Positions 25,372-45,339 of a stretch of DNA of 64,000 nt are shown piece by piece; position 1 is the first letter of the stretch; every line of letters starts with the position of its first letter. Both the position numbers and the translations under genes were made by a program. The stretch is from IMG/VR virus record IMGVR_UViG_3300037635_003078; one strand, 5' to 3'. A model generated the notes under the pieces. It was not told the DNA's origin. It saw only the letters and a program-made list of their open reading frames with translations, and searched no databases. Origin of the DNA: an uncultured virus (IMG/VR IMGVR_UViG_3300037635_003078). Lineage: Duplodnaviria > Heunggongvirae > Uroviricota > Caudoviricetes.

Positions 25372-28300
25372 ATGTCATTTGACTACACAGGTTCATTTAG
25401 TGGTTCATTTTATGGAGTTATTTCAGCATCCAGCCAGGTTAGCTATACACAAATAACTAATAAACCTACTACTATTTCAGCATTTCAAAAAAATGCTATA
25501 ACCGCTAATAATAGGTTTAGAGAAGTAACATATCCAAATGATTCGGCATCATTCGATAGCAGAATTAATACATTGGAAAATTTAACCGATGATACTGGTT
25601 CTGATTCTCAAACTCTTTCGTTTAATCAAGCAAGTAATGAGTTAACAATCACCGAAGGTAATACAGTTGACTTATCCTCACTTTCTGGTGGAGGTGGAGG
25701 TGGTGGTTCATCCATATGGACCACTGTGGATGGTAAATACAAAGTAAGTGCAAATTTAGATGTAACTGGCTCTATTATCGCAACTTCATTTACAGGTTCG
25801 ATTGATACATCAAGTATCACAAACTTTGATACCGAAGTATCTCGTTCTGCTGCTGCAAGTGGGTTTGGTACTGGTGGTGGTACATCTGATTTTACACAAC
25901 TTACTAATGTTCCAAGTGGGTTAATTAGTAGTTCAACCCAAATCACATCAGCTGATTTAGACATGGGTGGTAATAAAGTCCTCTTTGGGAATGTTTATTC
26001 TCAATTATCTGACTTACCAAACGCTGCAAGTTACCATGGTATGTTTGCTCACGTTCACGCAACTGGTAAAGCATATTTTGCTCATGGTGGTAATTGGGTT
26101 GAATTAGCAAACGCAAGTGGTAATATATCATCATCTACACAAGTAGAAGCAATCATAGACAATGTATACATTTCAGCATCTGCTGCCGCAAGTGGATTCG
26201 GTGCAGGTGGTGGTGAGACTTATGCCGAAGGTTTGGGCATAGACATTGTATCTGAAGTAATATCAATTGATACAGCATCCGCACATTTTAGAATAGCAGT
26301 ATCTCAATCAGCAGCCAGCTACGGATTTGGTTCCGGTGGAGGTGGTGGAGGTGGTTCATTCGGTGACCCTCCTGTAATTATATCTCATGGATTTACTATA
26401 CCTGAATTCACAGGCAGTAACGCATTTATTGGTCAACTCATAGCAACAGATGTCACTCCTGGTGATACACAAACTTGGGCAGTTCAAGATTCGTATAGTG
26501 ATAACTTCTTTGAGGTATCTACTACTGGTGTAGTTAGAGCTACGGCTTCTTCGAGTAGAGCTATGAATACTGATAATACTCCAGGATCAGGTTCACATCC
26601 ATTCTTAATTAAAGTAACCGATGGCCAAAATAATGTAGTTGAAAAAACTATATACATTCGTGTAACCCCAAACTCAGCACCATCTTTTAGAATTGATGGT
26701 GTAAGTGGAAATACAATTACGGCATTTACCGCATCTTTGGATGAATCATCATCTGCTGAAACTAAAACTCAATATAGAGTCTATGTTACGGATGCTGATA
26801 GTGATGCACTAACAATTAGAACAGGTAGTTTAGGAACTGACCACTTCTCATTTACAATTGGTACGACTGGAGTATCAAAATATATAGACCTTGTTCAAGT
26901 AACAAGTTCTTTAGATTACGAGAGTTTAACGTCATACTCATTTATAATCACCGCATCAGATGCAAATTATGAATTAGGTTACGATGTCGCAAATATAACA
27001 CACCTACCATTCAGAGTAGAGGTAGTTGATAACTTAGGTCCAGGAATACAAAATCAATCGTTATCAGGTTTAAACGAAAACTCATCGGATGGTACTTCTG
27101 TTGGTAGTATTACTGCTACTGATAATAGTAATCCTGCTAATACAATATTGTATAAGGACTTTACATTGGTATCGGCCCATTCTGGAAGTGACATTTCAAA
27201 TCCAAATATCACTTCATCACTTGGGGGTACTACATTAACCGACCCTACCGCAGACCCATTCCAAATGAATATTGCAGGGGCTGTTACTCGTAAGTCTTCA
27301 GTATTCTTAAACTCAGATATCGCAAATAGGTATGTGTATAGAGTAAATGTCGGAGATGCTTATAACATAGATTCTGCAAGTGCATTGATTACAATTCCAA
27401 TCGCAGACGATGCTGCTTCAAGTATTGGTGTAAATGGTGGTACTTACTATGTCCACGAAGGTGCATTGACTGGAAAAAATTTAACAACCAATTCAAATGG
27501 ATACGCTTCAGGTGATATAACATTTACTTCAGCTGTATCTCAAATGTGGGAAGTTAATAGTGTACCAAGTGGATATGTTAGATTCCAACAAAATAGCGCA
27601 ACAAGTTATACGGGTTCAAGTGTAACTCTTGAAGTGGATACTGCTATTAGTGGTAACTTACACTTCGCAGATAGTGACACTGTGGCTATACAAATCACTG
27701 CATCTGAAACTTCATTTGAAACTACAAAACAATATAGAGACCATACTCTAACGATTACCGATAATAAACCATACGCAATTGTATTTACTGATACATCTGC
27801 TAATCTAAACACAAATGGTGCTAGACCATCAAATATATTAAGTGTAATTTCATTCACGGAACCTCAATTTGGTATTGGTGATACTATTGACCATAGTCAA
27901 TTCTCATTTACTGACCCAAGTGGTCAATTAACTGCATCACGAAATAGTGATGCTTATGAAGTAAGTGCTTTAACCAATTTGAGTGGGTCTACTACTTACG
28001 AGTTTACTGCAAGTATCGCTGATAGTTATGGTAATATCTCAACATCGGGTTCTTCATTTACAATCGTTGAAGCGGGACTTGGTACTCCTGGTGCAAATGG
28101 TGTATTTTATGTAATCGAATCGGCTGAAACTGGCGATAGTGTTGTTACTAACTCAAATGGTAGAACTGGAACTCAGGCTAAGTTGTCAGTAACATACTCA
28201 CCACAATATAATTCAGCAGCAGTTGCATCATTCACATCATCGAATGCACAACTTAGTGTCGCGAGTAATGGTAATGTGAGTGTTGGGACTAACATTAGTG

Positions 28301-33017: not shown

Positions 33018-34925
33018 ATGCCGAATTGGAAAAAAGTCATCACTTCCGGTAGTGATGCAATTTTAAATCAAATTACATCATCAGGTGGAATAAACTCCAC
33101 CGATATTACAATCAATGATTGGGGAAGTGTATCAGCTTCATTAGCATCATTGGATACATTAACCTATGGTGATTCTGATGTCAAACTCAAATTAAATACT
33201 GAAGGTGTACTTAGTGGGTCTACATTCTCATCACCATCTCAAGGTACTGTTAGAGCTACCATAAATGGTGTTAATTCTGATGTAGATACTGGCTTACAAT
33301 CCGCAGATTCACCTACATTTGATAGTTTAACATTAACAGGTGACCTTACAGTATTAGGTAGTAAAGTAGACCTACAAGTAGCTGAACTTAATGTTCAAGA
33401 TAAATTTATAAAAATAGCAAGTGGGTCAGCTAATCCTACGGCCGCTAACGGTGCAGGTATTTATATTGATGGGGCTGATGTGTCTTTACATTGGTCTAGT
33501 ACCAATAGTAGATTTCAATTTGACGATGACCTACATACAGCAGCAACTCTTAACATTGGTAACGTAAACCACGCAACAACTGATACTGACAAGTTTTTGG
33601 TATTAGACTCTAATGGTGACGTAGACTATCGTACCGGCACTGAGGTCCTTTCAGATATTGGTGGTACTGGTGCTTCTAACCTTAGTGGTGCAGCAACTGA
33701 GATTCCATTCTTTAGTTCAACAAGTGCTATAACGAGTTCAGTTCGGTTAAAGTTAAATAAAAATATAACTACCGGTGATGTGTTAGTACACCATGGTCAG
33801 TTTAATGTAATCAATGACCCAAGTGTTTCGGGAACATCTGCAATGCAGATTATTGTGGGTTCTGGTTCAAGTGGTGATGTTTCAAATCCACAATATGATT
33901 CGTTCCTATCAATGGAACAAGAAAGTGCTACCATAGTAGGTCTTAGAGCACATGGTACAACACCAACATCAGCTCAAATTAAAATGAGAACTGATGTTAG
34001 TGATGCTTATTCGATTGGTAGACTAACAAACCCATATGGTGCAAATACTCTTAGAATAAAACCAGCTATTATTGCTGAAGGTGGTCTTTCTATAACTGGA
34101 TCATTAACTATATCGGGTTCTAATACATTAAAAAATATCGGACCAGCACAATTTAGTGGTTCGGTTAATATTAAAACAGATAAGCAAGTACAAGCAACAA
34201 CTGATACTGACAAGTTTGTTGTATTGGATGGTGACCAACTTAAATATAGAAGTGGTACGCAATTATATGATGATATAGGTGTTACTTCACTATCATCATC
34301 AATTGCAAGTGATATTGCTGGGCTTGATGCTGCTAGTGGTAATTACGTTATAAATGATACTGGAGCATCATCTAATAGATTAGCTATTTGGTCTAATACT
34401 GCCCGAATTAAAGGTGATTCTGCTTTTAAAATCCTCGAAAATAAATATGGTCAAGGTTTTCAATTTGACCAATGGGGTGGTAACCAAGTTGATACACTTA
34501 AATCACCGGCCTTCAAAGGGAATGGTTTGGAACTTGGAGATAATATCCCTGGAACCCCAGCACCATTCACAGCGTCTCTCACAATTCATACAAATCACGG
34601 AAACACTAGCAACTCAGTAGAAAAAACAGCTGAAGGTCATCAGTATGGAGTAGGCACTCATGTAATTTATCAAAAAGTGGGTTCGTCTTTCCATATACAT
34701 TACAATATTTCAGAGGGTAGTGCAATGCGTTCTGGACAATTAACTATTGTTGTTAGTGGTAACGAGGTAGCGATGACCGAATATAGTACAACTGATATTG
34801 GAACTGGAAGTTCAAGTCCAGCTCAATTCTCAGCAACAGCATCTAACGGTGTGTTAACATTATCGATAACATCCGCCGGTGGTGGAACTATTTTGTTTAA
34901 CGTAGAACGTATGTATAGTATATAA
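33018..34925 (+). CDS. Tail-fibre-like protein
   Basis: MPNWKKVITSGS start, segments shared with 31314..32408; two TDTDKF(L/V)VLD modules. Confidence 0.65.
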   Translation: MPNWKKVITSGSDAILNQITSSGGINSTDITINDWGSVSASLASLDTLTYGDSDVKLKLNTEGVLSGSTFSSPSQGTVRATINGVNSDVDTGLQSADSPTFDSLTLTGDLTVLGSKVDLQVAELNVQDKFIKIASGSANPTAANGAGIYIDGADVSLHWSSTNSRFQFDDDLHTAATLNIGNVNHATTDTDKFLVLDSNGDVDYRTGTEVLSDIGGTGASNLSGAATEIPFFSSTSAITSSVRLKLNKNITTGDVLVHHGQFNVINDPSVSGTSAMQIIVGSGSSGDVSNPQYDSFLSMEQESATIVGLRAHGTTPTSAQIKMRTDVSDAYSIGRLTNPYGANTLRIKPAIIAEGGLSITGSLTISGSNTLKNIGPAQFSGSVNIKTDKQVQATTDTDKFVVLDGDQLKYRSGTQLYDDIGVTSLSSSIASDIAGLDAASGNYVINDTGASSNRLAIWSNTARIKGDSAFKILENKYGQGFQFDQWGGNQVDTLKSPAFKGNGLELGDNIPGTPAPFTASLTIHTNHGNTSNSVEKTAEGHQYGVGTHVIYQKVGSSFHIHYNISEGSAMRSGQLTIVVSGNEVAMTEYSTTDIGTGSSSPAQFSATASNGVLTLSITSAGGGTILFNVERMYSI

Positions 34926-34973
34926 AATAAATTAAATCCTAAGTTTGGAAAGTGAAAAACACGAGGAAATAAA

Positions 34974-35753
34974 ATGTCAAATAAATTTGTAATAAAGAAT
35001 GGACTTAAAGTACAATCAGGTGGTATAAACACCACTGGTGATTTATCTATTACAGGTTCATTAGTAGTAACTGGAACACTAACGGCTGAGTCTTATATAG
35101 TAAGTTCCTCTGTAACACATAAGACTACCACATTTAGTAGTGGGTCAACCCAATTTGGTGATACTTCTAATGATACCCATGGATTTACCGGGTCAATGGA
35201 TGTAACTCAACAAATTACTACACCGGATATAAAATTAACTGGATTAAGTAATGCAGGTGTTGATACTGATAAGTTCTTAGTATTAGACTCAAATAGTAAT
35301 GTAGATTTTAGAACTGGTACTCAAGTACGTTCTGATATAGGTGCTGTAGCTATTGGTAATGAAATCCACCCAATACAATTGACAATAGATACGAAAAATT
35401 CACCTTTTGGTTATGTCGCATTTTCAGGATTATCTGATATACAATCACTCCCTAATAGAGCATTCACTACCTTTATAGCACCATGTACTGGTTACATCGA
35501 AGATATAATTGTATCACCCGAACAAACTAATTCAGTTCAGGACGATTGTGATATTTCACTATATAATGGTGGTTCGCAACAATCCTCTACAAATACGGAA
35601 ACGTTACAAAGTGCAGGTACTAATGTAACCTTTAACTTTGGGGCTTCAAATTACTCATTTAGTAACGGAGATAGATTGAGTCTTGAATTTGATAAAAAAA
35701 CTAATACTTCTGAATTGTACAATATGATGATTGTACTTAGGTTAACAAGTTAA
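34974..35753 (+). CDS. Fibre-associated virion protein
   Basis: SGSTQFGDTSNDTHGFTGS motif; DTDKFLVLDSN module shared with the upstream gene. Confidence 0.6.
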   Translation: MSNKFVIKNGLKVQSGGINTTGDLSITGSLVVTGTLTAESYIVSSSVTHKTTTFSSGSTQFGDTSNDTHGFTGSMDVTQQITTPDIKLTGLSNAGVDTDKFLVLDSNSNVDFRTGTQVRSDIGAVAIGNEIHPIQLTIDTKNSPFGYVAFSGLSDIQSLPNRAFTTFIAPCTGYIEDIIVSPEQTNSVQDDCDISLYNGGSQQSSTNTETLQSAGTNVTFNFGASNYSFSNGDRLSLEFDKKTNTSELYNMMIVLRLTS

Positions 35754-35766
35754 GGGATAAAGTAAT

Positions 35767-38700
35767 ATGGAATTAATACACGGTTTACATAAAGATACCT
35801 TAATAGACATCAATGGGAGTCTCCAAAATATTGGTGACATACAACCGGGTGACGTAGTAAAAGGTTTTGAAATAAAAAGTGGTGTCGTAAGAGACAATAA
35901 AGTTGTTTGGGTAAAAACATCAACAATCGGCTCTTACATTGAATTCACCCTTTCAGATGGTTCTAACGTAAAATCATCAGTTGATGCTAAAATCTTAACC
36001 CTAATGGGTGAGTGGGTTTCACCAATAAATGCATTCAACAAACAAAAAGAATTACACAACGACCTACACATTACCTCATTAAGGTATGTAGAAGAATCGT
36101 TAGATATTATAAGTATAGAGGTAGAGCCTGACCACAATTACTATGTAGGTAAATTACTATTCCACAATACGGGTCCAACTGGTCCAGCTGGTCTAAAGGG
36201 TCAAAAAGGAGAAGCTGGTAATAAAGGTGTTACTGGAGCTCAAGGACCTCAAGGTGCACAGGGTCAAAAGGGAGCTACTGGTTCACAAGGACCTGGTGGT
36301 TCTACCGGCCCAACCGGACCTCAAGGCCCAACTGGTAACAATGGTGTAACTGGTCCTAAAGGTGCAACTGGCCCAACCGGCCCCAAAGGTTCAACAGGCC
36401 CTCAAGGTGGAACAGGCCCTCAAGGTGCTAAAGGTGTAAACGGACCTACTGGTTTAACTGGCCCTCAAGGTGCTCAAGGGAATGCCGGTCCTAAAGGTCA
36501 AAAAGGAGCTACTGGCTCACAAGGTGGAACTGGTGCTACAGGTGGAAAGGGTTCCACTGGTTCAAAAGGACCACAAGGTGCTGATGGCCCTCAAGGTGCT
36601 AAAGGCCCACAAGGTGCTACTGGCCCACAAGGTGATAAAGGTCAAAAAGGTGCAACTGGCTCAACCGGTCCTCAAGGTGGAGTAGGTCCACAGGGTGGAG
36701 CAGGCCCACAAGGTGCTACTGGCCCACAAGGTGGAACTGGTCCAACAGGCCCTAAAGGTCAAAAAGGAGCTACCGGCTCACAAGGTGGAACTGGCGCAAC
36801 AGGTCCTCAAGGTGCTGATGGTCCTCAAGGTGCAACTGGCCCTAAAGGTGCTACTGGCCCACAAGGTGCTACTGGCCCACAAGGTGGAAAAGGTCAAAAA
36901 GGAGCTACCGGCTCACAAGGTGGAAAAGGTTCACAAGGTGCTAAAGGTGTAAACGGACCTACTGGTTTAACTGGCCCTCAAGGTGCTCAAGGAAATCCCG
37001 GCCCTAAAGGTGCAACAGGAGCTACTGGCTCACAAGGTGGAACTGGTGCTCAAGGTGGAAAAGGTTCTACTGGCTCAACTGGCCCACAAGGTGCTGCTGG
37101 CCCACAAGGTGCTAAAGGCCCACAAGGTGCTACTGGCCCACAAGGTGGAAAAGGTCAAAAAGGTGCAACTGGTTCAACCGGTCCTCAAGGTGGGGTAGGT
37201 CCTCAAGGTGGAGCAGGCCCACAAGGTGCTACTGGCCCACAAGGTGATACTGGCCCAACAGGCCCTAAAGGTCAAAAAGGAGCTACCGGCTCACAAGGTG
37301 CAACTGGCCCAACAGGACCTCAAGGTGCTGATGGTCCTCAAGGTGTAACTGGCCCTCAAGGTGCTACTGGCCCTCAAGGTGCTACTGGCCCACAAGGTGG
37401 AAAGGGTCAAAAAGGAGCTACCGGCTCACAAGGTGGAAAAGGTTCACAAGGTGCTAAAGGTATAAACGGACCTACTGGTTTAACTGGCCCTCAAGGTGCT
37501 CAAGGAAATCCTGGCCCTAAAGGTCAAAAAGGAGCTACTGGCTCACAAGGTGGAACTGGTGCTCAAGGTGGAAAAGGTTCTACTGGCTCAACTGGCCCAC
37601 AAGGTGCTGCTGGCCCACAAGGTGATAAAGGTCCACAAGGTGCTACTGGCCCACAAGGTGATAAAGGTCAAAAAGGTGGAACTGGCTCAACAGGCCCTCA
37701 AGGTGGAGTGGGTCCTCAGGGTGGAGCAGGCCCACAAGGTGCTACTGGCCCACAAGGTGATACTGGCCCAACCGGTCCTAAAGGTCAAAAAGGAGCTACT
37801 GGCTCACAAGGTGCAACTGGTCCAACAGGACCTCAAGGTGCTGATGGTCCTCAAGGTGCAACTGGCCCTCAAGGTGCTACTGGCCCTCAAGGTGCTACTG
37901 GCCCACAAGGTGGAAAGGGTCAAAAAGGAGCTACCGGCTCACAAGGTGGAAAAGGTTCACAAGGTGCTAAAGGTGTAAACGGACCTACTGGTTTAACTGG
38001 CCCTCAAGGTGCTCAAGGAAATCCCGGCCCTAAAGGTGCAACAGGAGCTACTGGCTCACAAGGTGGGACTGGTGCTCAAGGTGGAAAAGGTTCTACTGGC
38101 TCAACTGGCCCACAAGGTGCTGCTGGCCCACAAGGTGCTAAAGGTCCACAAGGTGCTACTGGCCCACAAGGTGATAAAGGTCAAAAAGGTGGAACTGGCT
38201 CAACAGGCCCTCAAGGTGTAGTAGGTCCTCAAGGTCAAACAGGCCCTCAAGGTGGGACAGGCCCACAAGGTGATACTGGCCCAACAGGCCCTAAAGGTCA
38301 AAAAGGAGCTACTGGCTCACAAGGTGCAACTGGCGCAACCGGTCCTCAAGGTGATACCGGCCCACAAGGTGCGGTAGGTCCAACCGGTCCAACTCAACCA
38401 AAAGGTCAAAAGGGAGCTACTGGCTCACAAGGTGCAACTGGTCCAACAGGACCTCAAGGTGCTGATGGCCCTCAAGGTGCAACTGGCCCACAAGGTGATA
38501 AAGGCCCACAAGGTGCTACTGGCCCACAAGGTGATAAAGGTCAAAAAGGTGGAACAGGCGCAGATGGTGGTAAAGGTCAACAAGGTGACCAAGGTGCTCA
38601 AGGTTTAACAGGTGGAACAGGCCCACAAGGTGACCAAGGTGCTCAAGGTGATACCGGCCCTCAAGGTGATAAAGGTCAAAAAGGTCAAACTGGCCCTCAA

Positions 38701-39501
38701 GGTGCTGATGGCCCTCAAGGTGCTGATGGCCCTCAAGGTGCTACTGGCCCACAAGGTGATAAAGGTCCTCAAGGTGTAACTGGCCCACAAGGTGATAAAG
38801 GTCAAAAAGGTCAAACCGGCCCAGATGGTGAAAAGGGTCAACAAGGTGACCAAGGTGCAACTGGTCCAACTGGTGGAACAGGCCCACAAGGTGACCAAGG
38901 TGCTCAAGGTGATACCGGCCCTCAAGGTGATAAAGGTCAAAAAGGTCAAACTGGCCCTCAAGGTGCTGATGGCCCTCAAGGTGCTGATGGCCCTCAAGGT
39001 GCTACTGGCCCACAAGGTGATAAAGGTCCTCAAGGTGTAACTGGCCCACAAGGTGATAAAGGTCAAAAAGGTCAAACCGGCCCAGATGGTGAAAAGGGTC
39101 AACAAGGTGACCAAGGTGCAACTGGTCCAACTGGTGGAACAGGCCCACAAGGTGACCAAGGTGCTCAAGGTGATACCGGCCCTCAAGGTGATAAAGGTCA
39201 AAAAGGTATAACTGGCCCTCAAGGTGTTGCTGGCCCTCAAGGTGATACTGGTTCCCAAGGTAATGTGGGTCCTCAAGGTGATAAAGGTCAAAAAGGTCAA
39301 ACTGGATTTGAAGGTGCTAAAGGTCAAAAAGGTCAAACCGGCCTACAAGGCTCTAAAGGTCAAAAAGGTATTTCTGCTCTTGGTACACTAATTAGTGGTG
39401 TATCACCTGGATTGACGTGGGATACTACAAGAGGTGTACTTAAATTTAATAATGGTGGTAGTACTTATGTACTTCATATGTACGTAAGTGGTTCATACTA
39501 A
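35767..39501 (+). CDS. Collagen-like fibre protein 1 with N-terminal Hint domain
   Basis: aa 1-134 Hint-like ([10 protein letters not shown] ... [19 protein letters not shown]); about 1065 aa of Gly-X-Y; short C-terminal domain. Confidence 0.9.
36300..38300 (+). repeat. 513-nt (171 aa) tandem repeat, about 4 copies; boundaries approximate
   Basis: GGACCTACTGGTTTAACTGGCCCTCAAGG at 36442, 36955, 37468, 37981. Confidence 0.9.
38460..39240 (+). repeat. 261-nt (87 aa) tandem repeat, about 3 copies; boundaries approximate
   Basis: (G/C)CAGATGGTG anchors at 38560, 38821, 39082. Confidence 0.9.
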
Positions 39502-39519
39502 TATAGATAAACAAGTAAT

Positions 39520-42500
39520 ATGGCAGGATTAAATACACAACTCGTAAGATTACCAAATAGTTCATCAGTTACGATTAACACTCTACAAAGTGGGTCATCA
39601 GTAAGTGGTGTTGTATTACCAGGTTTAGGTTTAAATGAACAAGACTTTAGAAATTGGTCTTCTACTGATATATCTTCAACCTCACTTGGCGTAGCCAGTG
39701 TTGTATTTGAAGCAACCCATAGTGGTAGTGTCATCGAATTCAATAGTGGTGACCTTACAGTATCACAACATCAAAAAATCTTAATTAAAGATTCGAGTGG
39801 TTCGTATTACTTTACACCTGCTAATACTGTTAATTTAAATTCTGATTATTTAGTAAAGTACACCGATAGTGGTATAGTTGAAGAACTAATCACTTCAGCA
39901 TACGAAATACAAAACCAATCCATACATACCATTGCTATTGAAGACATTGACGTTTACTTAGCAGATGGATACATAGTTCATAATCCACCTGGATATAATA
40001 TTTTCAGTTGTGACCCAGCTACCGGCTATATGTACTATGGTGATAGATTTATGCTTGATGTAGATCCTGGCCCAAACTCTTTGCTTTGTTACGAGGCTGT
40101 ATTCGATGAAGTAGGTACTATTCCAGATAGAGCTCCCGACAATTGTGTATTTACAGGCAACCCTGTCGAGGAAGCTTCCTTTGGTATCGTTCTTGCAGAA
40201 CAATGTGGTGATTCTCCTTTTGGCGATACGGATACTTCACCGGGTCCTGCCGGTCTAGCAGGACAAAAGGGTCAAAAAGGTAATGATAATAAGGGGTATA
40301 AAGGTAGTACTGGTGGTCAAGGTCCTAATGGATTAGAAGGAGCAAAAGGTTCAACTGGCGCACAAGGTCCTACTGGTGGACAAGGTCCTACTGGTCCCCA
40401 AGGTGCATCAGGTTCAACGGGACCTCAAGGGCCAAAAGGTTCAGCCGGCCCATCTCCTGGTGGTGACCAAGGTGCAACTGGCCCCACCGGTCCTCAAGGT
40501 AATTCCGGAAACCAAGGTCCTAAAGGTGTTCAAGGCCCACAAGGTGCAGTTGGTCCATCACCTGCAGGTCAAAAAGGTGCAACTGGCCCACAAGGTGCTC
40601 AAGGACCATCTGGTGGTGTCGGAGACGTTGGTGCAGCTGGTTCTAAAGGTGTTCAAGGCCCACAAGGTGATGAAGGTGCAGTAGGTGCATCACCAAAAGG
40701 TGCTGCTGGTCAAAAGGGAGCTACTGGTTCAACCGGCCCTAAAGGTGTTCAAGGTCCTAAAGGTGTACAAGGCCCTAAAGGTGTTCAAGGTCCTAAAGGT
40801 GTAAATGGACCATCGCCAGCAGGTCAAAAAGGAGCTACCGGGTCCAAAGGAGATACTGGCCCTCAAGGCCCTAAAGGTATTCAAGGTCCTAAAGGTGTTC
40901 AAGGCCCACAAGGTGATGAAGGTGCCGTAGGTGCATCACCTAAAGGTCAAAAAGGTGAAACTGGTGCTACTGGCTCTAAAGGAGATACTGGCCCACAAGG
41001 TAATTCAGGAAATCAAGGTCCTAAAGGTGTTCAAGGCCCACAAGGTGCAGTTGGTCCATCACCTGCAGGCCAAAAAGGTGCAACTGGCCCACAAGGTGCT
41101 GAAGGACCATCTGGTGCCAATGGTGATAAAGGTGTTCAAGGTCCTAAAGGTGTTCAAGGTGGAGTAGGTGATGAAGGTGCCGTAGGCGCATCACCTAAAG
41201 GTGCTGCTGGTCAAAAGGGAGCTACTGGTTCAACCGGCCCTAAAGGTGTTCAAGGTCCTAAAGGCGTTCAAGGCCCTAAAGGTGTTCAAGGTCCTAAAGG
41301 TAAAAATGGAGCATCACCAGCAGGTCAAAAAGGTGCTACTGGCCCTAAAGGAGATACTGGCCCTCAAGGCCCTAAAGGTATTCAAGGTCCCAAGGGTGTT
41401 CAAGGCCCACAAGGTGATGAAGGTGCAGTAGGTGCATCACCTAAAGGTCAAAAAGGTGAAACTGGTGCTACTGGCTCTAAAGGAGATACTGGCCCACAAG
41501 GTAATTCAGGAAATCAAGGTCCTAAAGGTGTTCAAGGCCCACAAGGTGCAGTTGGTCCATCACCTGCAGGCCAAAAAGGTGCAACTGGCCCACAAGGTGC
41601 TGAAGGACCATCTGGTGCCAATGGTGATAAAGGTGTTCAAGGTCCTAAAGGTGTTCAAGGTGGAGTAGGTGATGAAGGTGCCGTAGGCGCATCACCTAAA
41701 GGTGCTGCTGGTCAAAAGGGAGCTACTGGCCTTCAAGGTCCTGTTGGTGGTCAAGGTGAAGATGGTGTTCAAGGCCCTAAAGGTGTTCAAGGTCCTAAAG
41801 GTGTAAATGGTCCATCACCAGCAGGTCAAAAAGGAGCTACTGGCCCTAAAGGAGATACTGGCCCTCAAGGCCCACTTGGTGACCAAGGTCCTAAAGGTAT
41901 AACTGGCCCACAAGGTTCATCTGCTCCTGGTCAAAAAGGAGCTACTGGTCCTAAAGGAGATACTGGCCCGCAAGGCCCTAAAGGTGTTCAAGGCCCTAAA
42001 GGTGTTCAAGGTGGAGTAGGTGATGAAGGTGCAGTAGGTGAATCACCTAAAGGTCAAAAAGGTGAAACGGGTGCTCAAGGACCATCGGGTATTTCAGGTG
42101 ATAGTGGAAATAAAGGTATTCAAGGTTCTAAAGGTGTTCAAGGTCCTAAAGGTATAAAAGGTATAATTGGATTATCACCTAAAGGTCAAAAAGGTGAAAC
42201 TGGCGGTCAAGGTCCTAAAGGTGTTCAAGGTCCTAAAGGCGTTCAAGGCCCTAAAGGTGTTCAAGGTGGAGTAGGTGATGAAGGTGCAGTAGGTGAATCA
42301 CCTAAAGGTCAAAAAGGTGAAACGGGTGCTCAAGGACCATCAGGTATTTCAGGTGATAGTGGTGATAAGGGTGTTCAAGGTTCTAAAGGTATTCAAGGTC
42401 CTAAAGGTATAAAGGGTATAATTGGATTATCACCTAAAGGTCAAAAAGGTGAAACTGGTGGTCAAGGTCCTAAAGGTGTTCAAGGTCCTAAAGGCGTTCA

Positions 42501-43002
42501 AGGCCCTAAAGGTGTTCAAGGTGGAGTAGGTGATGAAGGTGCAGTAGGTGAATCACCTAAAGGTCAAAAAGGTGAAACGGGTGCTCAAGGACCATCAGGT
42601 ATTTCAGGTGATAGTGGTGATAAAGGTATTCAAGGTTCTAAAGGTATTCAAGGTCCTAAAGGTATAAAAGGTATAATTGGATTATCACCTAAAGGTCAAA
42701 AAGGTGAAACTGGCGGTCAAGGTCCTAAAGGTGTTCAAGGTCATAAAGGTGCTCAAGGTCCTAAAGGTATACAAGGCAATACTGGTGGTGAGGGTCAAAA
42801 AGGCCAGACTGGCGCTTCACCACTTGGTGAAACTGGTTCTAAAGGTCAACAAGGTGGTGTTGGTGATAAAGGTAACCAGTTATCGGGTGGATATTTTGAA
42901 TGGGATGAGTCTTTAGATAAGTTGGTATTCAAAGAATATGGTTATTCAAGTGGTGACCCTCTTTATGTAGTAGAAACTTACTTCAGTGGTTCATCTTATT
43001 AA
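39520..43002 (+). CDS. Collagen-like fibre protein 2 with N-terminal Hint domain and periodic G-x-S-P-x-G interruptions
   Basis: aa 1-155 Hint-like (INTLQSGSSV ... IAIEDIDVYLADGYIVHN|P); 4-Cys domain; about 880 aa collagen; C-terminal domain similar to collagen 1. Confidence 0.88.
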   Translation: MAGLNTQLVRLPNSSSVTINTLQSGSSVSGVVLPGLGLNEQDFRNWSSTDISSTSLGVASVVFEATHSGSVIEFNSGDLTVSQHQKILIKDSSGSYYFTPANTVNLNSDYLVKYTDSGIVEELITSAYEIQNQSIHTIAIEDIDVYLADGYIVHNPPGYNIFSCDPATGYMYYGDRFMLDVDPGPNSLLCYEAVFDEVGTIPDRAPDNCVFTGNPVEEASFGIVLAEQCGDSPFGDTDTSPGPAGLAGQKGQKGNDNKGYKGSTGGQGPNGLEGAKGSTGAQGPTGGQGPTGPQGASGSTGPQGPKGSAGPSPGGDQGATGPTGPQGNSGNQGPKGVQGPQGAVGPSPAGQKGATGPQGAQGPSGGVGDVGAAGSKGVQGPQGDEGAVGASPKGAAGQKGATGSTGPKGVQGPKGVQGPKGVQGPKGVNGPSPAGQKGATGSKGDTGPQGPKGIQGPKGVQGPQGDEGAVGASPKGQKGETGATGSKGDTGPQGNSGNQGPKGVQGPQGAVGPSPAGQKGATGPQGAEGPSGANGDKGVQGPKGVQGGVGDEGAVGASPKGAAGQKGATGSTGPKGVQGPKGVQGPKGVQGPKGKNGASPAGQKGATGPKGDTGPQGPKGIQGPKGVQGPQGDEGAVGASPKGQKGETGATGSKGDTGPQGNSGNQGPKGVQGPQGAVGPSPAGQKGATGPQGAEGPSGANGDKGVQGPKGVQGGVGDEGAVGASPKGAAGQKGATGLQGPVGGQGEDGVQGPKGVQGPKGVNGPSPAGQKGATGPKGDTGPQGPLGDQGPKGITGPQGSSAPGQKGATGPKGDTGPQGPKGVQGPKGVQGGVGDEGAVGESPKGQKGETGAQGPSGISGDSGNKGIQGSKGVQGPKGIKGIIGLSPKGQKGETGGQGPKGVQGPKGVQGPKGVQGGVGDEGAVGESPKGQKGETGAQGPSGISGDSGDKGVQGSKGIQGPKGIKGIIGLSPKGQKGETGGQGPKGVQGPKGVQGPKGVQGGVGDEGAVGESPKGQKGETGAQGPSGISGDSGDKGIQGSKGIQGPKGIKGIIGLSPKGQKGETGGQGPKGVQGHKGAQGPKGIQGNTGGEGQKGQTGASPLGETGSKGQQGGVGDKGNQLSGGYFEWDESLDKLVFKEYGYSSGDPLYVVETYFSGSSY
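40490..41900 (+). repeat. 501-nt (167 aa) tandem repeat, about 3 copies; boundaries approximate
   Basis: Identical off-frame ORFs at 40931 and 41432 in the ORF track are 501 nt apart. Confidence 0.88.
41980..42740 (+). repeat. 255-nt (85 aa) tandem repeat, 3 copies; boundaries approximate
   Basis: GGTGAAACGGGTGCTCAAGGACCATC at 42061, 42316, 42571. Confidence 0.9.
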
Positions 43003-43037: not shown

Positions 43038-43637
43038 ATGGAAAAGAATTTTAATTTTAGTGATAGTTCACGTAGCTTTGTAGACTACTCAAATTACTAC
43101 TGGTTTAAAGATGGGTTTACTACTACCGAACTCGTTGATATAGAATCCCTCACAACTAATTTGGATTGGGTAGACGCTCAAACTGGTCAAGATGTTAAAT
43201 CCAAAATCACCGATTATAGAAAATCAAAAATTAAATGGTGTCCACAATCAGACGAGTGGTATTGGGTATACGAAAAGTTGTCTGATATGATTAAGACCGC
43301 TAATAAAACCATGTGGGACTTTGAATTAACTCAAATGAGAGAGCAAATTCAATATACCGAATATTATAGTGGTGGTGGTCAGTACGACTGGCATATGGAT
43401 TGTGGTATTGGTATACAAAACCAACGGAAGGTCTCAGTAACTGTTCAATTATCCGACCCATCTGAATATGAGGGTGGTGATTTACAATTTAATATTGGTG
43501 GTAGTTGGATTACAGCACCACGTATAAAGGGAGCTGCTGTTATTTTTCCATCATTCTTTCTACACAGAGTAACACCTATAACTAAAGGTACACGAAAGTC
43601 CTTTGTATTGTGGGTGGGTGGTGAACCATTTAAATAA
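43038..43637 (+). CDS. 2OG-Fe(II) dioxygenase (prolyl-hydroxylase/PKHD-like)
   Basis: YDWHMD, RKVSVTVQLS, YEGGDL, FPSFFLHRVTP, GTRKSFV. Confidence 0.92.
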   Translation: MEKNFNFSDSSRSFVDYSNYYWFKDGFTTTELVDIESLTTNLDWVDAQTGQDVKSKITDYRKSKIKWCPQSDEWYWVYEKLSDMIKTANKTMWDFELTQMREQIQYTEYYSGGGQYDWHMDCGIGIQNQRKVSVTVQLSDPSEYEGGDLQFNIGGSWITAPRIKGAAVIFPSFFLHRVTPITKGTRKSFVLWVGGEPFK

Positions 43638-43644
43638 ATAAAAT

Positions 43645-45339
43645 ATGAAGGTATTATTTGTATCAGGTTATCAAAAATCTAAATGGTCATTAGATACTTG
43701 GATTAACGAAGGTGCTGGTGGCACTGAGTATATGGTACTCAAATTAGCACACTTCTTCAAGTTAAACGGCCATGACGTTGTAGTTACTGGTGAAGTTGAC
43801 ACGGCCAACATCGATGGTGTTGACTATGTAGATTACGAGATACTTTCCAAAAAATATAAAAATAATAAATTTGATATTGTAATATGTACTAACTATATTC
43901 ATTATATATTAGAGTTAGCTGAACATAATATTACATACGACAAATCTTACTTTTGGATTCATAATAATGAATACTATCCGTGGTGGAATGGTATGACATT
44001 AGACAACGATGGTTATGATTTCTTCTTAGATGATAGAATGACCAATATCGTATTGGTATCGAATTACCAAAAGGAAATATTCTTAAAAAAATATCCTGAG
44101 TTAGAACACAAAGTCTTAGTAATCCCAAATGGTATAGACTTATCAGATTGGAGTGGTATATCTAACGAAAAGATACCAAATAGATTTATATACTCATCAG
44201 CTCCAGATAGAGGATTAAAAACCCTACTAAGAATGTGGCCGAAGATAAAGGCGTTGTACTCAGACGCTACATTGATAGTAACCTCACCACCATATGCACT
44301 TGAGTGGTATGATTCGTATAAAGATGATTTAGATGGTGTTACATTTTACGATGGGTTATCTCCAAAAAAATTATACAATGAGATTTCTAAATCCGAATAT
44401 TGGCTGTACCCATCCAAGTATGATGAGACATTTTGTATAACGGCATTAGAAATGATGCAAGGTGGTGTTAAGATATTAACAACTGATACTGGTAATCTTT
44501 TATCACTAATACAGGGGTGTGGTATAATCGAACCATCATCTAAAAAAGATAGTGATTTAGAAAGTTCACTTATACAACAAATTGGTAGGTTGAAAAATTC
44601 ACCATCACTATCTTCTAAAATATTAGATAATTCTAAAAATAAAGTAAAGCAATTTGACTTTCCAAAGATATATAAGAAATGGATAGATACAATAGAGTTT
44701 AAAGTTATGCCTGATAAACTACATCCAGAATTGTATACATATTATGATAACGCTCATTCTTGGAAAGAACGATTCATAACATACTCAGCTAAAACTAAAG
44801 AATGGGATTTGATTGTAGATGAACCATTTACAAATACATTCTCATTTCCATTATTTACTCCTGAGTTTTGTAAAATGATTAGGGAAGAAGCTGAGTATGC
44901 AGATGCTTGGACAGTTGATAGGCATGAAAATTATCCAACCACTGATATGATATTAGAAACTATTGGAATGCAGGACATTTATATGGATGTTCTAAAAGAG
45001 TATGTCATGCCACTTTCGATTCATATGTGGGAATTGGAAGGTAAGGGTTGGGATAACCTAACATCAGAAAACTTTTTAGCCAGATACACGCCAAATGCTC
45101 AAGGTCATTTATCAATACACCATGATATGTCTGACATTACGTGTTTAGTACAATTATCAAACCTCACTGAATATGAGGGTGGTGGTACATGGTTCAGACG
45201 ACAAAAACAATTATTAAAAAATGATATAGGGTATGTAACTTTACATCCTGGAAATATAACCCATAAACATGGGGCAAGAGCGGTATCGTCAGGTAAAAGA
45301 TATATCATAGTTTCCTTTATGAGAAATACGGAAAGATAA
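43645..45339 (+). CDS. GT-B (GT4-like) glycosyltransferase fused to a PLOD-like lysyl hydroxylase domain
   Basis: GGTE, IPNGID, YSSAPDRGL, YPS-x-YDETFCITALE; C-terminal FPLFTPEFC, ENYPTTD, NFLARY, HHD, YEGGG, LHPGNITHKHG, GKRYIIVSF. Confidence 0.88.
   Translation: MKVLFVSGYQKSKWSLDTWINEGAGGTEYMVLKLAHFFKLNGHDVVVTGEVDTANIDGVDYVDYEILSKKYKNNKFDIVICTNYIHYILELAEHNITYDKSYFWIHNNEYYPWWNGMTLDNDGYDFFLDDRMTNIVLVSNYQKEIFLKKYPELEHKVLVIPNGIDLSDWSGISNEKIPNRFIYSSAPDRGLKTLLRMWPKIKALYSDATLIVTSPPYALEWYDSYKDDLDGVTFYDGLSPKKLYNEISKSEYWLYPSKYDETFCITALEMMQGGVKILTTDTGNLLSLIQGCGIIEPSSKKDSDLESSLIQQIGRLKNSPSLSSKILDNSKNKVKQFDFPKIYKKWIDTIEFKVMPDKLHPELYTYYDNAHSWKERFITYSAKTKEWDLIVDEPFTNTFSFPLFTPEFCKMIREEAEYADAWTVDRHENYPTTDMILETIGMQDIYMDVLKEYVMPLSIHMWELEGKGWDNLTSENFLARYTPNAQGHLSIHHDMSDITCLVQLSNLTEYEGGGTWFRRQKQLLKNDIGYVTLHPGNITHKHGARAVSSGKRYIIVSFMRNTER

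What the first reader, a model, noticed from the sequence alone, without database searches (positions are those of the whole stretch)
36300..42740. The two collagens have repeat periods that match in triple-helix register, suggesting a heterotrimer
Seen: collagen 1 repeats are 171 aa then 87 aa; collagen 2 repeats are 167 aa then 85 aa. The collagen 2 units contain 4 and 2 five-residue G-x-S-P-x interruptions. Counting each as two triplets gives 171 and 87 exactly (57 and 29 triplets). Sub-unit spacing also agrees: 16/13/15/13 triplets on the GAT anchor in both long units and 14/15 on GQK in both short units. Copies are near-identical within a gene yet diverged between genes. The short unit is Asp-rich in chain 1 and Lys-rich in chain 2. 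Inference: the chains co-assemble and the register is under selection. Caveat: chain 1 is about one long unit longer, which may be real or an assembly artefact.
Basis: partly seen in the sequence, partly recalled or inferred. Interest (0 to 1): 0.85.

Follow-up and report, generated by a model that had tools for sequence, protein, structure and literature searches.

The report
Two register-matched phage collagen genes
An uncultured marine phage carries two neighbouring collagen genes whose internal repeat patterns change together from one related phage to the next, which suggests that the two chains are built into one fibre, possibly the first mixed-chain collagen outside animals.

Summary
Collagen 1 (35767-39501) repeats at 171 then 87 aa. 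Collagen 2 (39520-43002) repeats at 167 then 85 aa, with one G-x-S-P-x 5-mer per sub-unit. Counting a 5-mer as two triplets minus one Gly gives 57 and 29 triplets in both genes.

In 8 of 9 related genome sets the two genes share their main periods: 57/29, 68/29, 38, 35/21, 45/15, 34, about 52, 21/7; the ninth (96/121) is weak. These periods differ between clades. A 97%-related strain carries a different sub-unit order, and it is the same in both genes. One clade has exactly 255 uninterrupted triplets in each gene.

Simple paralogy is therefore unlikely and selection on a common register is well supported. That the chains form one heterotrimeric helix is the best reading but is not shown. Total lengths match in only 4 of 7 complete pairs, fine-scale charge pairing is inconclusive, and the complex prediction gave weak support only.

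Alongside: collagen 1 has an N-terminal Hint-fold domain, and a collagen lysyl-hydroxylase/glycosyltransferase fusion lies downstream. Interest 0.75. Novelty: new variant of a known kind.

The parts
35767..39501 (+). collagen 1 (c1), 1244 aa
   Evidence: ORF. Pfam Collagen E 3.5e-133.
35767..36168 (+). c1 N-terminal Hint/BIL-fold domain (residues 1-134). Gly6 sits where inteins have Cys1. The domain ends His133-Asn134, followed by Thr135.
   Evidence: A profile of 7 homologues hits inteins and BIL2 in the PDB at E 6e-4 to 2.6e-3. AF2 model has pLDDT 68.8. Top Foldseek hits are all Hint folds, e.g. 6tmm E 6.9e-8 TM 0.72 and 2lwy TM 0.76. H133, N134 and T135 are invariant in 7 of 7.
36172..39375 (+). 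c1 collagen domain, residues 136-1203: 356 triplets, one G->Q (QPK, nt 38395-38403)
36343..38433 (+). c1 long-unit zone: 57-triplet (171 aa) period, about 3.75 copies, sub-units 16/13/15/13
   Evidence: equivalents 19-251
38377..39315 (+). c1 short-unit zone: 29-triplet (87 aa) period, about 3 copies, Asp-rich
   Evidence: equivalents 245-349
39376..39498 (+). c1 C-terminal non-collagen domain (about 41 aa, ends SGSY), homologous to that of c2
   Evidence: alignment of 8 homologues
39520..43002 (+). collagen 2 (c2), 1160 aa. It starts 18 nt after the c1 stop, with no terminator-like site between them.
39520..39984 (+). c2 N-terminal domain (residues 1-155), ends His154-Asn155. Hint-likeness has weak support only.
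   Evidence: H154 and N155 are invariant in 8 of 8. The low-confidence model (pLDDT 52) still gives only inteins/Hedgehog Hint as top folds, at E 4e-4 and weaker. Profile-profile comparison with the c1 domain is not significant, E 0.22.
39985..40242 (+). c2 Cys-containing linker (residues 156-241) with three invariant Cys (164, 190, 209)
40243..42879 (+). c2 collagen domain, residues 242-1120: 279 triplets plus 21 five-residue steps = 300 triplet equivalents
40447..41919 (+). c2 long-unit zone: 167 aa = 57 equivalents, about 2.75 copies, sub-units 16/13/14/14, one G-x-S-P-x each
41929..42804 (+). c2 short-unit zone: 85 aa = 29 equivalents, about 3.3 copies, Lys-rich
42880..42999 (+). c2 C-terminal non-collagen domain (about 40 aa, ends SGSSY)
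43038..43637 (+). 2OG-Fe(II) oxygenase (PKHD/PiuC type, P4H-like superfamily), conserved directly after c2 in relatives
   Evidence: PF13640 E 8.3e-14. phrog_61 E 1.1e-35. PiuC in the PDB at E 2.7e-9. Present after c2 in the loci.
43645..45339 (+). glycosyltransferase (GT4/GT1 type) fused to a collagen lysyl-hydroxylase domain (residues 357-559)
   Evidence: Pfam hits. Human LH3/PLOD3 lysyl-hydroxylase domain at E 6.3e-29 and the 235-aa LH chain 6ax6 at E 5.7e-22.

Best explanation
c1 and c2 are two alpha-chains of one virion fibre, not two independent fibre proteins.

Proposed mechanism; every step is inferred unless a call is cited:
1. The two genes are co-transcribed. They are 18 nt apart with no terminator-like site between them.
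2. Their homologous C-terminal domains of about 40 aa bring the chains together.
3. The collagen domains zip into a mixed triple helix, aligned triplet for triplet.
4. The G-x-S-P-x 5-mers of one chain are single-Gly deletions. They lie opposite G-x-[ST]-G-P-x in the other chain, so a 5-mer spans two triplets of its partner.
5. Tandem-unit gains and losses are frequent. Only phages in which both genes carry the same sub-unit order keep a fully paired helix, so the repeat architecture of the two genes evolves in lockstep.
6. The Hint-fold N-domain probably removes itself by Asn cyclisation, which would make it a built-in propeptide.
7. The downstream lysyl hydroxylase-glycosyltransferase probably modifies the many X-Lys-Gly sites.

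What is shown: the periods, the colinearity, the co-variation, the Hint fold of c1, and the lysyl-hydroxylase homology. What is inferred: co-assembly, stoichiometry, self-cleavage and modification.
For: 1. Shared periods. In triplet equivalents the main periods coincide within a genome and differ between clades:
- window: c1 57/114/29, c2 57/29/114
- L020: 68 and 29 in both
- L042: 38/76 in both
- L047: c1 21/35, c2 35/21
- L048: c1 45/15/30, c2 90/30/45/15
- L049: 34 in both
- L051+L052: 53 against 52
- L067: 21/7/28/14 in both
- L056: 96/121 in both, weak
Profile correlation is 0.52 within a genome against 0.04 +/- 0.13 between genomes. The true pairing is the best of 5040 permutations. c1-to-c1 correlation between clades is about 0.

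2. Parallel recent rearrangement. Strain L020 has 97% identity in the flanking gene. Its c1 reads 16 13 15 13 | 16 13 12 | 15 12 | 16 13 12 | 15 15. Its c2 reads 16 13 14 14 | 15 14 12 | 15 12 | 16 13 12 | 14 15. The window has n x (16 13 15 13) in c1 and n x (16 13 14 14) in c2. All 15 of 15 anchors lie within 1 triplet of each other over 232 triplets. The 68-triplet zone spans equivalents 79-227 in c1 and 78-225 in c2. L020 sub-units are mostly 85-100% identical to sub-units of the same gene in the window (two spans with a lost anchor score lower), but only 24-67% to the other gene. Architecture therefore changes much faster than sequence, yet stays matched.

3. Equal lengths. L042 has exactly 255 uninterrupted triplets in both genes. 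Other totals are 412/406 (L047), 372/360 (L051+L052) and 461/450 (L056). In L047, c2 carries five globular inserts of 117-171 aa, yet its summed collagen still equals c1. The 35-triplet zones fall at equivalents 234-410 and 242-377. This fits inserts that loop out of a continuous mixed helix.

4. Colinear similarity. The global maximum of c1-c2 identity lies at the N-aligned register in 4 of 8 sets. These are the window (+1, z 4.4; also the C-aligned -56, z 4.1), L020 (+1, z 5.3), L042 (-1, z 3.4) and L048 (0, z 6.8). The missing Gly of one chain sits opposite Gly-Pro of the other.

5. The '5-mer = 2 triplets' rule fits all 5 of 5 interrupted cases: 167+4, 85+2, 199+5, 100+5 and 97+5. The interrupted gene is c2 in the window clade and c1 elsewhere.

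6. Weak supports. Cross-chain Lys(Y)->Asp/Glu(X) pairs peak at the aligned register in L042: 23, the best of 81 shifts, against 11 and 12 for the same chain paired with itself. Complex prediction with 2 x c1 C-terminus plus c2 C-terminus gave weak support. The score was 0.49 against a best control of 0.00. That mark was reached by 116 of 157 solved complexes and 2 of 215 mismatches, but scores of 0.60 or under by only 18 of the 157. The runs agree in at least 56% of contacts and the partner pLDDT is at least 73.
Against: 1. Total lengths do not match in 3 of 7 complete pairs: window 356 against 300, L049 161 against 377, L067 338 against 378.

2. A Gly deletion in only one kind of chain creates a register conflict in a mixed helix. 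It is harmless if all three chains carry it, as in a homotrimer. This is reasoning from triple-helix geometry, not a test.

3. Both chains are net positive. Charge cross-correlation at the aligned register is between about 0 and -0.25, no better than at other shifts. Most cross-chain K->D/E pairs in the window clade follow from c2's own KGE motifs at conserved anchors.

4. No colinear identity peak appears in 4 of 8 sets: L047, L049, L051+L052, L056.

5. The two C-terminal domains are paralogues, so the weak complex score cannot tell hetero- from homotrimers.

6. [quoted passage not shown]

7. All assemblies are short-read metagenome contigs. Repeat copy numbers differ between near-identical assemblies: L007 c2 has one long unit fewer and one short unit more than the window.
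Confidence: 0.45

Rival explanations
1. c1 and c2 each form a homotrimer. The two fibres belong to one appendage and must stay matched, either packed side by side in register or spanning the same distance. Selection then acts on matched length and matched sub-unit positions, without mixed helices.
For: - It accounts for the same co-variation data.
- Gly deletions carried by all three chains of a homotrimer raise no register problem.
- c2 alone carries PA14/CBM-like inserts in relatives, as a separate receptor-binding fibre might.
- Animal fibrillar collagens of different types also keep equal lengths because they pack together (recalled).
Against: - The match holds in triplet equivalents, not in residues. 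In L047, c1 has 56 deletions, so two separate helices would drift about 56 residues (roughly 16 nm) out of step over the domain. In L020 the drift would be about 16 residues at the 15th anchor.
- The summed collagen of c2 equals c1 even though c2 has about 700 aa of globular inserts, which would lengthen a separate c2 fibre.
- Matching only overall reach would not require the same order of sub-units.
Confidence: 0.3
2. There is no physical coupling. The two genes are colinear paralogues, and they look alike in period because of common descent, concerted evolution within each gene, and occasional gene conversion between them through the shared 21-nt anchor sequences.
For: - The genes are clear paralogues, with homologous C-terminal domains and a similar start of the collagen domain.
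- They share clade-specific motifs (GQKGATG anchors in the window clade, GAQ-rich in L043/L047) and some identical 21-nt anchor DNA.
- Identity peaks at the in-register shift in 4 of 8 sets.
- Totals disagree in 3 of 7 pairs.
Against: - c1 and c2 orthologues are recognisable in all clades, so the duplication is older than the clades. Yet each clade has its own period, shared by both genes.
- Architecture changes between strains whose same-gene sub-units are still mostly 85-100% identical, while c1 and c2 sub-units are only 24-67% identical. Neutral unequal crossing-over would have destroyed colinearity long before sequences diverged that far. A recent conversion would have left near-identical stretches, and none are seen.
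Confidence: 0.12
3. The matching periods are an artefact of short-read assembly of repetitive DNA.
For: - In 7 of 7 near-identical IMG/VR loci the contig ends inside the collagen repeats.
- Copy numbers differ between assemblies of near-identical strains.
- No Logan contig spans the region.
Against: - Periods and sub-unit order are properties of unit junctions, not of copy number.
- The c1 arrangement of the window recurs in L017 and L045, and that of L020 recurs in L021 from another sample.
- c1 and c2 are too diverged (24-67%) for assemblers to mix them.
- The pattern recurs in contigs of 8 further clades or strains.
Confidence: 0.03

Closest known systems
Animal heterotrimeric collagens and C1q (type I alpha1/alpha2, type IV, C1q A/B/C)
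   Same: Paralogous chains have triple-helical domains of equal length, with interruptions at matched levels, and non-collagen end domains thought to select chains. The phage pair shows equal length in L042 (255/255), matched sub-unit positions, and homologous C-terminal domains. The details of the animal collagens are recalled, apart from general statements in PMC8968730 and PMC11923368 (passages read).
   Different: The phage domains flanking the collagen are unrelated: a Hint fold at the N-terminus and a 40-aa C-terminal domain with no Pfam match. In most clades one chain type carries periodic single-Gly deletions that the other lacks. Co-assembly has not been shown.
Prokaryotic and prophage collagen-like proteins (Scl1/2, BclA, E. 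coli O157 prophage EPclA type)
   Same: Long Gly-X-Y domains without hydroxyproline, Pro in X, charged and Thr-rich triplets, and a role as fibres of phages or cell surfaces (PMC3368898, search listing only; PMC8968730 and PMC11923368, passages read).
   Different: Those are described as homotrimers of a single gene product (PMC8968730). Here two adjacent genes co-vary in repeat architecture. No known flanking trimerisation domain was found by Pfam at E <= 0.01.
Mimivirus collagens with the L230 lysyl hydroxylase/glycosyltransferase
   Same: A virus that encodes both collagens and a fused glycosyltransferase + collagen lysyl-hydroxylase. The window's 564-aa protein matches the LH domain of human LH3 (E 6.3e-29) and the 235-aa LH chain 6ax6 (E 5.7e-22). 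I recall 6ax6 as mimivirus L230; no call confirmed this. Mimivirus hydroxylation and glycosylation are mentioned in PMC8968730.
   Different: This is a tailed bacteriophage, not a giant virus of amoebae. Its glycosyltransferase part matches the GT4/GT1 families. No chemistry has been shown.
Bacterial intein-like (BIL) / Hint domains that only cleave
   Same: The predicted fold of the c1 N-domain matches BIL2 (6tmm), the C. thermocellum BIL (2lwy) and mini-inteins at TM 0.65-0.76. The C-terminal His-Asn and a +1 Thr are invariant.
   Different: The position of the N-terminal nucleophile is Gly (Ala in L067). The domain sits at the very N-terminus, so there is nothing upstream to splice. Pfam Intein_splicing scores 13.9 bits against a cut-off of 35.8.

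Membership tests
Collagen triple-helix repeat proteins (PF01391) | Gly at every third residue over long stretches; match to the family model above its cut-off | tested here: met
   c1 has 247+108 uninterrupted triplets and c2 has 279 triplets in 22 runs. PF01391 scores 433.9 and 306.9 bits against a cut-off of 27.2.
Collagen triple-helix repeat proteins (PF01391) | Three chains actually fold into a triple helix | not testable with these tools
   Needs CD spectra, protease resistance or a structure.
Heterotrimeric collagens | Two or more distinct paralogous chains encoded together | tested here: met
   c1 is directly followed by c2 in the window and in all 11 contigs where both gene starts are visible: L020, L042, L043, L045, L047, L048, L049, L051, L056, L057, L067.
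Heterotrimeric collagens | Triple-helical domains of equal length with landmarks at matched levels | tested here: inconclusive
   Totals are equal or within 3% in 4 of 7 complete pairs (255/255, 412/406, 372/360, 461/450). They are unequal in 3 (356/300, 338/378, 161/377). Anchors lie within 1 triplet at 15 of 15 positions in L020.
Heterotrimeric collagens | Co-variation of the chains' architecture across relatives | tested here: met
   Main periods are shared in 8 of 9 genome sets. The true pairing is the best of 5040 permutations.
Heterotrimeric collagens | Chain-selecting non-collagen domain; physical co-assembly in a fixed ratio | not testable with these tools
   Homologous C-terminal domains exist. 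The complex prediction gave only weak support (0.49 against a best control of 0.00) and cannot separate hetero- from homotrimers.
Heterotrimeric collagens | Complementary charges between chains at the aligned register | tested here: inconclusive
   There is a regional contrast only (-3.6 against +5.5 per 100 aa in the short units). The cross-correlation is flat. K->D/E pairs reach z of about 2-3 at aligned shifts, partly explained by conserved anchors.
Hint / intein / BIL domains (c1 N-domain) | Hint fold | tested here: met
   The Foldseek top 50 are all inteins, BIL or Hedgehog Hint. Best hit E 6.9e-8, TM up to 0.76. Model pLDDT 68.8.
Hint / intein / BIL domains (c1 N-domain) | Nucleophile (Cys/Ser/Thr) as first residue of the domain | tested here: not met
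   The aligned position is Gly6, invariant in 7 of 7, and Ala in L067. The placement is by my reading of the alignment to inteins.
Hint / intein / BIL domains (c1 N-domain) | C-terminal His-Asn and a +1 nucleophile | tested here: met
   H133, N134 and T135 are invariant in 7 of 7.
Hint / intein / BIL domains (c1 N-domain) | Match to the Pfam intein model above its cut-off | tested here: not met
   PF14890 scores 13.9 bits (window) and 18.9 bits (L043) against a cut-off of 35.8.
Collagen lysyl hydroxylases (PLOD/LH3 type; neighbouring 564-aa gene) | Sequence homology to the LH catalytic domain | tested here: met
   Residues 357-559 align to LH3 residues 501-713 at E 6.3e-29.
Collagen lysyl hydroxylases (PLOD/LH3 type; neighbouring 564-aa gene) | Fe/2OG-binding residues present; hydroxylation of X-Lys-Gly | not tested
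   The residues were not inspected. Activity needs an assay.

The most novel reading that the evidence does not exclude
A bacteriophage 'procollagen' system with three parts:
- Two alpha-chains fold into a heterotrimeric triple helix. This would be the first natural mixed-chain collagen outside animals.
- Each chain starts with a self-removing Hint-fold pro-domain.
- The phage's own lysyl hydroxylase-glycosyltransferase modifies the chains.

Because the helix must pair triplet for triplet, tandem-repeat changes in one gene are tolerated only with the same change in the other. The two genes would then be a natural example of obligate co-evolution of repeat architecture.
Probability: 0.25. Interest if true: 0.9.

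Novelty: new variant of a known kind. Interest (0 to 1): 0.75.

Why it matters
Collagen heterotrimers and the rules that set chain choice and register are known only from animals. They are hard to study because the chains are long and need eukaryotic processing.

A phage pair would give a small, bacterial-scale system with a natural comparative series, since dozens of related phages each have their own matched unit pattern. That would make three questions directly testable:
- what selects the chains;
- how a helix tolerates a Gly deletion in one chain;
- whether hydroxylysine glycosylation works in a prokaryotic setting.

Even if the chains turn out to form separate fibres, the lockstep evolution of tandem repeats in two genes is an unusual and measurable case of structural co-evolution. 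It also warns that these genes are systematically broken or mis-counted in short-read viromes.

Tried and rejected
1. Fine-scale charge complementarity. Smoothed charge profiles of c1 and c2 were cross-correlated in the window (N- and C-aligned parts), L020 and L042. Values at the aligned register were 0 to -0.25, no more extreme than at other shifts. Not used as support.

2. Lys(Y)->Asp/Glu(X) axial pair counts show an enrichment of z about 2-3 at aligned shifts. In the window clade this is largely a by-product of c2's own KGE motifs at conserved anchors. Kept only as weak support.

3. Copy number of the long units. The look-up of sequencing runs returned 24 runs, all kept as Logan contigs. 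On 4 of them no contig spans the region, and the depths are per-unitig means. Unitigs in the short units of both genes sit at about 3x the flank (163.8 and 179 against 56 in X1), which fits about 3 copies. The long-unit count stays open.

4. The repeat finder on the region gave only noisy families driven by the 9/18-nt collagen periodicity. It was replaced by lag-identity scripts.

5. The c2 N-domain. The profile comparison with the c1 Hint domain was not significant (E 0.22). The PDB profile search gave nothing meaningful. The AF2 model was poor (pLDDT 52). Its Foldseek hits are all Hint folds but weak. Hint-likeness of c2 is only suggested.

6. Isolates. Neither N-domain has a tblastn match in 50,697 phage records. 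The closest isolate by tail sheath, Microcystis phage Mel-JY01 (57%), has no collagen cassette between its capsid and neck genes.

7. The search of earlier findings held nothing for this genome.

8. Literature. Five searches listed no natural heterotrimeric prokaryotic or phage collagen and no phage lysyl hydroxylase. Subscription journals are not covered.

9. I considered that the antisense and alternative-frame ORFs inside the repeats (e.g. 38605..39336 on the - strand) might be genes. I rejected this, because they are the K/V/L-rich translations expected from other frames of Gly-X-Y DNA.

Full report
WHAT IS THERE. The region holds two adjacent + strand genes: c1 (35767..39501, 1244 aa) and c2 (39520..43002, 1160 aa). 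They are 18 nt apart with no terminator-like site between them. Both are strong matches to the collagen repeat family. The window is the structural module of a myovirus, with a major head protein at 22940, a head-tail adaptor-like gene at 45385 and a tail sheath at 48310. Whole-genome contigs of this phage in IMG/VR are about 173-178 kb. The closest isolate by sheath protein is Microcystis phage Mel-JY01 (57% identity). It lacks the collagen cassette between its capsid and neck genes. Neither collagen N-domain matches any of 50,697 phage records.

c1 residues 136-1203 are 356 triplets with a single G->Q replacement and no length interruptions. c2 residues 242-1120 are 279 triplets broken by 21 five-residue steps, nearly all G-x-S-P-x. 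Autocorrelation gives 171 then 87 aa in c1 and 167 then 85 aa in c2. Both chains are punctuated by a GQKG[AE]TG anchor, and every c2 sub-unit holds one 5-mer. If a 5-mer counts as two triplets minus one residue, both genes have units of 57 and 29 triplets. The sub-unit strings are almost the same:
- c1: 26 | (16 13 15 13) x3 | 16 13 12 | 15 | 15 14 | 15 14 | 15 10 4
- c2: (16 13 14 14) x2 | 16 13 12 | 14 | 15 14 | 15 14 | 15 11

Counted from the start of the collagen domain, anchors lie at 36, 52, 65, 80, (93), 109, 122... in c1 and at 37, 53, 66, 80, 94, 110, 123... in c2. Counted from the end they also agree within 2 triplets. c1 has one extra long unit in the middle. Copies within a gene are 82-100% identical in DNA. 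Sub-units of the two genes are only 53-67% identical, Gly included. The Asp-rich against Lys-rich contrast of the short units is real.

THE DECISIVE TEST: RELATIVES. Five collection scans brought in relatives. Their c2 N-domain is 44-100% identical to the window's. In the window and in all 11 contigs where both gene starts are visible, c1 is directly followed by c2. I converted every collagen domain to triplet equivalents and ranked its periods.

| Genome set | c1 periods | c2 periods |
|---|---|---|
| window | 57, 114, 29 | 57, 29, 114 |
| L020 (97% strain) | 29, 58, 68 | 68 ... 29 (5' part only) |
| L042 | 38, 76 | 38, 76 |
| L047 | 21, 35 | 35, 21 |
| L048 | 45, 15, 30 | 90, 30, 45, 15 (5' part only) |
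| L049 | 54, 34 | 34, 68 |
| L051 + L052 | 15, 53 | 52 |
| L056 | 121, 24, 96 | 96, 25, 122, 121 (weak) |
| L067 | 21, 7, 28, 14 | 51, 21, 7 |

The interrupted gene is c2 in the window clade but c1 in L047, L048, L049, L051, L056 and L067. Neither gene is interrupted in L042. The '5-mer = two triplets' rule fits in all five cases where it can be tested: 167+4, 85+2, 199+5, 100+5 and 97+5. As a global test, I correlated the autocorrelation profile of each c1 with that of each c2. The mean is 0.52 for the same genome and 0.04 +/- 0.13 for different genomes. The diagonal is the row maximum in 7 of 8 sets. Only the true pairing, out of 5040 permutations of 7 genomes, reaches the observed sum. c1 profiles of different clades do not correlate. 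The periods are therefore clade-specific and shared by the two genes.

PARALLEL RECENT CHANGE. Strain L020 differs from the window in unit order, and it does so in both genes:
- c1: 16 13 15 13 | 16 13 12 | 15 12 | 16 13 12 | 15 15
- c2: 16 13 14 14 | 15 14 12 | 15 12 | 16 13 12 | 14 15

All 15 anchors visible in both genes lie within one triplet of each other over 232 triplets. The new 68-triplet repeat occupies equivalents 79-227 in c1 and 78-225 in c2. The c1 arrangement recurs in a contig from another sample, L021. L020 sub-units are mostly 85-100% identical to window sub-units of the same gene, against 24-67% to the other gene. Unit order thus changes on a much shorter time scale than the divergence between c1 and c2, and yet stays matched. 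This argues against common descent or gene conversion as the sole cause. Neutral unequal crossing-over would erase colinearity, and a recent conversion would leave near-identical stretches, which are absent.

TOTAL LENGTHS. L042 has exactly 255 uninterrupted triplets in each gene. L047 has 412 against 406, L051+L052 372 against 360, and L056 461 against 450. In L047, c2 is split by five globular inserts of 117-171 aa. Its summed collagen still equals that of c1, and the 35-triplet repeat zones coincide once the inserts are spliced out. Against this, three pairs disagree: the window (356 against 300, one long unit), L067 (338 against 378) and L049 (161 against 377). All these genes come from short-read assemblies:
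- 7 of 7 near-identical IMG/VR loci end inside the repeats.
- L007 gives c2 one long unit fewer and one short unit more than the window.
- Only contigs, not reads, were available to check depth.

The mismatches may be collapse artefacts or real. I could not decide which.

HOW IT MOST LIKELY WORKS. The simplest physical reason for triplet-level matching is that the chains pair in one helix. Four observations point that way:
1. The match holds in triplet equivalents, not residues. Separate helices would drift about 16 residues (L020) to about 56 residues (L047) out of step.
2. The missing Gly of the interrupted chain lies opposite Gly-Pro in the partner, e.g. G-A-S-(-)-P-Q against G-A-T-G-P-Q in L048.
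3. Collagen totals match irrespective of globular inserts in c2.
4. The two chains have homologous C-terminal domains of about 40 aa and similar collagen starts.

Sequence identity between the chains is highest at the N-aligned register in 4 of 8 sets (z 3.4-6.8). Weaker hints are the peak of cross-chain Lys->Asp/Glu pairs at the aligned register in L042 (23, best of 81 shifts) and a weak complex prediction for two c1 C-termini plus one c2 C-terminus. That prediction scored 0.49 against a best control of 0.00. The mark was reached by 116 of 157 solved complexes and 2 of 215 mismatches, but scores of 0.60 or under by only 18 of the 157. Contact agreement was at least 56% and partner pLDDT at least 73. 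Because the two domains are paralogues, this pass may reflect likeness only.

AGAINST A HETEROTRIMER.
- A Gly deletion in one chain type is geometrically awkward in a mixed helix and harmless in a homotrimer.
- Both chains are net positive, and fine-scale charge correlation is flat.
- Three of seven totals disagree.
- Known prokaryotic collagens are described as homotrimers (PMC8968730, passages read).

I therefore give the heterotrimer 0.45, two register-matched homotrimeric fibres 0.30, uncoupled paralogy 0.12 and an assembly artefact 0.03.

ACCESSORY PARTS.
- c1 N-domain (residues 1-134). It has a Hint/BIL fold by profile search (E about 1e-3) and by predicted structure (Foldseek E 6.9e-8, TM up to 0.76). 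Gly6 replaces the N-terminal nucleophile. His133-Asn134-Thr135 are invariant in 7 of 7. This is the pattern expected for C-terminal self-cleavage only. I infer a self-removing pro-domain.
- c2 N-domain. It ends in an invariant His-Asn (8 of 8) and is followed by a linker with three invariant Cys. Its Hint-likeness is only weakly supported.
- Downstream genes. These are a PKHD/PiuC-type 2OG oxygenase and a GT4/GT1 glycosyltransferase fused to a collagen lysyl-hydroxylase domain (LH3 E 6.3e-29). Both collagens are rich in G-x-K. One paper reports that KGE/KGD and Thr-containing triplets are unusually frequent in viral collagens and discusses Thr glycosylation (PMC11923368, passages read).
- c2 inserts in relatives. 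They include a PA14 domain (E 8.2e-14) and a weak CBM_4_9 match, which suggests glycan binding by the fibre.

COMPARISON AND NOVELTY. The pair resembles animal heterotrimeric collagens in logic: paralogous chains, matched landmarks and end domains. It resembles mimivirus in encoding its own lysyl hydroxylase-glycosyltransferase. The flanking domains are different, and the periodic one-chain Gly deletion is unusual. Five literature searches listed no natural heterotrimeric prokaryotic or phage collagen and no phage lysyl hydroxylase. Subscription journals are not covered. It does not address chain pairing, and I did not test it.

VERDICT. Novelty: new variant of a known kind. Interest 0.75.

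Noticed in passing
window 43645-45339 (+): A 564-aa fusion of a GT4/GT1-type glycosyltransferase with a collagen lysyl-hydroxylase domain (human LH3 E 6.3e-29; LH chain 6ax6 E 5.7e-22). It is conserved after the collagens in relatives. My literature searches listed no phage-encoded collagen lysyl hydroxylase.
   Followed up: partly
window 43038-43637 (+): A 199-aa PKHD/PiuC-type 2OG-Fe(II) oxygenase directly after c2, present in every related locus that reaches this point. Its substrate is unknown. Pro in these collagens sits mostly in the X position, and in the conserved S-P of the 5-mers.
   Followed up: partly
window 35767-36168 (+): c1 begins with a Hint/BIL-fold domain. Gly replaces the N-terminal nucleophile, but His-Asn-Thr at the junction with the collagen is invariant. 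It is probably a self-cleaving pro-domain.
   Followed up: yes
window 39985-40242 (+): c2 has an 86-aa linker between the His-Asn motif and the collagen. It carries three invariant Cys (164, 190, 209) and a conserved D-T-S-P-G lead-in. Its function is unknown.
   Followed up: no
L047:8161-14712, L049:10001-14770, L052:720-5330: In relatives, c2 carries globular domains inserted within the collagen stalk: a PA14 domain (E 8.2e-14) in L049, a weak CBM_4_9-like domain, and two unnamed beta-rich types of about 118 and 170 aa in L047 and L052. c1 never carries inserts.
   Followed up: partly
L001-L007, L017-L021 (contig ends): Metagenome contigs of this phage, including 173-178 kb near-complete genomes, end inside the collagen repeats. 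Unit copy numbers differ between near-identical assemblies: L007 c2 is 1078 aa against 1160 aa in the window.
   Followed up: partly
window 33018-35753 (+): Two upstream fibre-like genes (635 and 259 aa) share a motif (DTDKFLVLD...RTGT.V.SDIG). The 635-aa one starts with MPNWKKVITSGS, a start also seen on several fibre genes in related loci. Neither has a Pfam or PHROG match.
   Followed up: no
window 24650-45339 compared with L044 (Mel-JY01): About 20 kb of large structural genes, including a 1724-aa ORF at 25372-30546, the collagens and their enzymes, lies between the major head protein and the head-tail adaptor-like gene. In the closest isolate only three small genes lie there.
   Followed up: partly
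window 38395-38403 (+): There is a single Gly->Gln replacement (QPK) in the otherwise perfect 356-triplet c1 collagen, at the junction of the long-unit and short-unit zones.
   Followed up: no
window 36695-36952, 37496-37978, 38792-39040, 40376-40684 (+) and 38605-39336 (-): Long K/V/L-rich ORFs in other frames of the collagen repeats. They are by-products of the Gly-X-Y codon periodicity, not genes.
   Followed up: no
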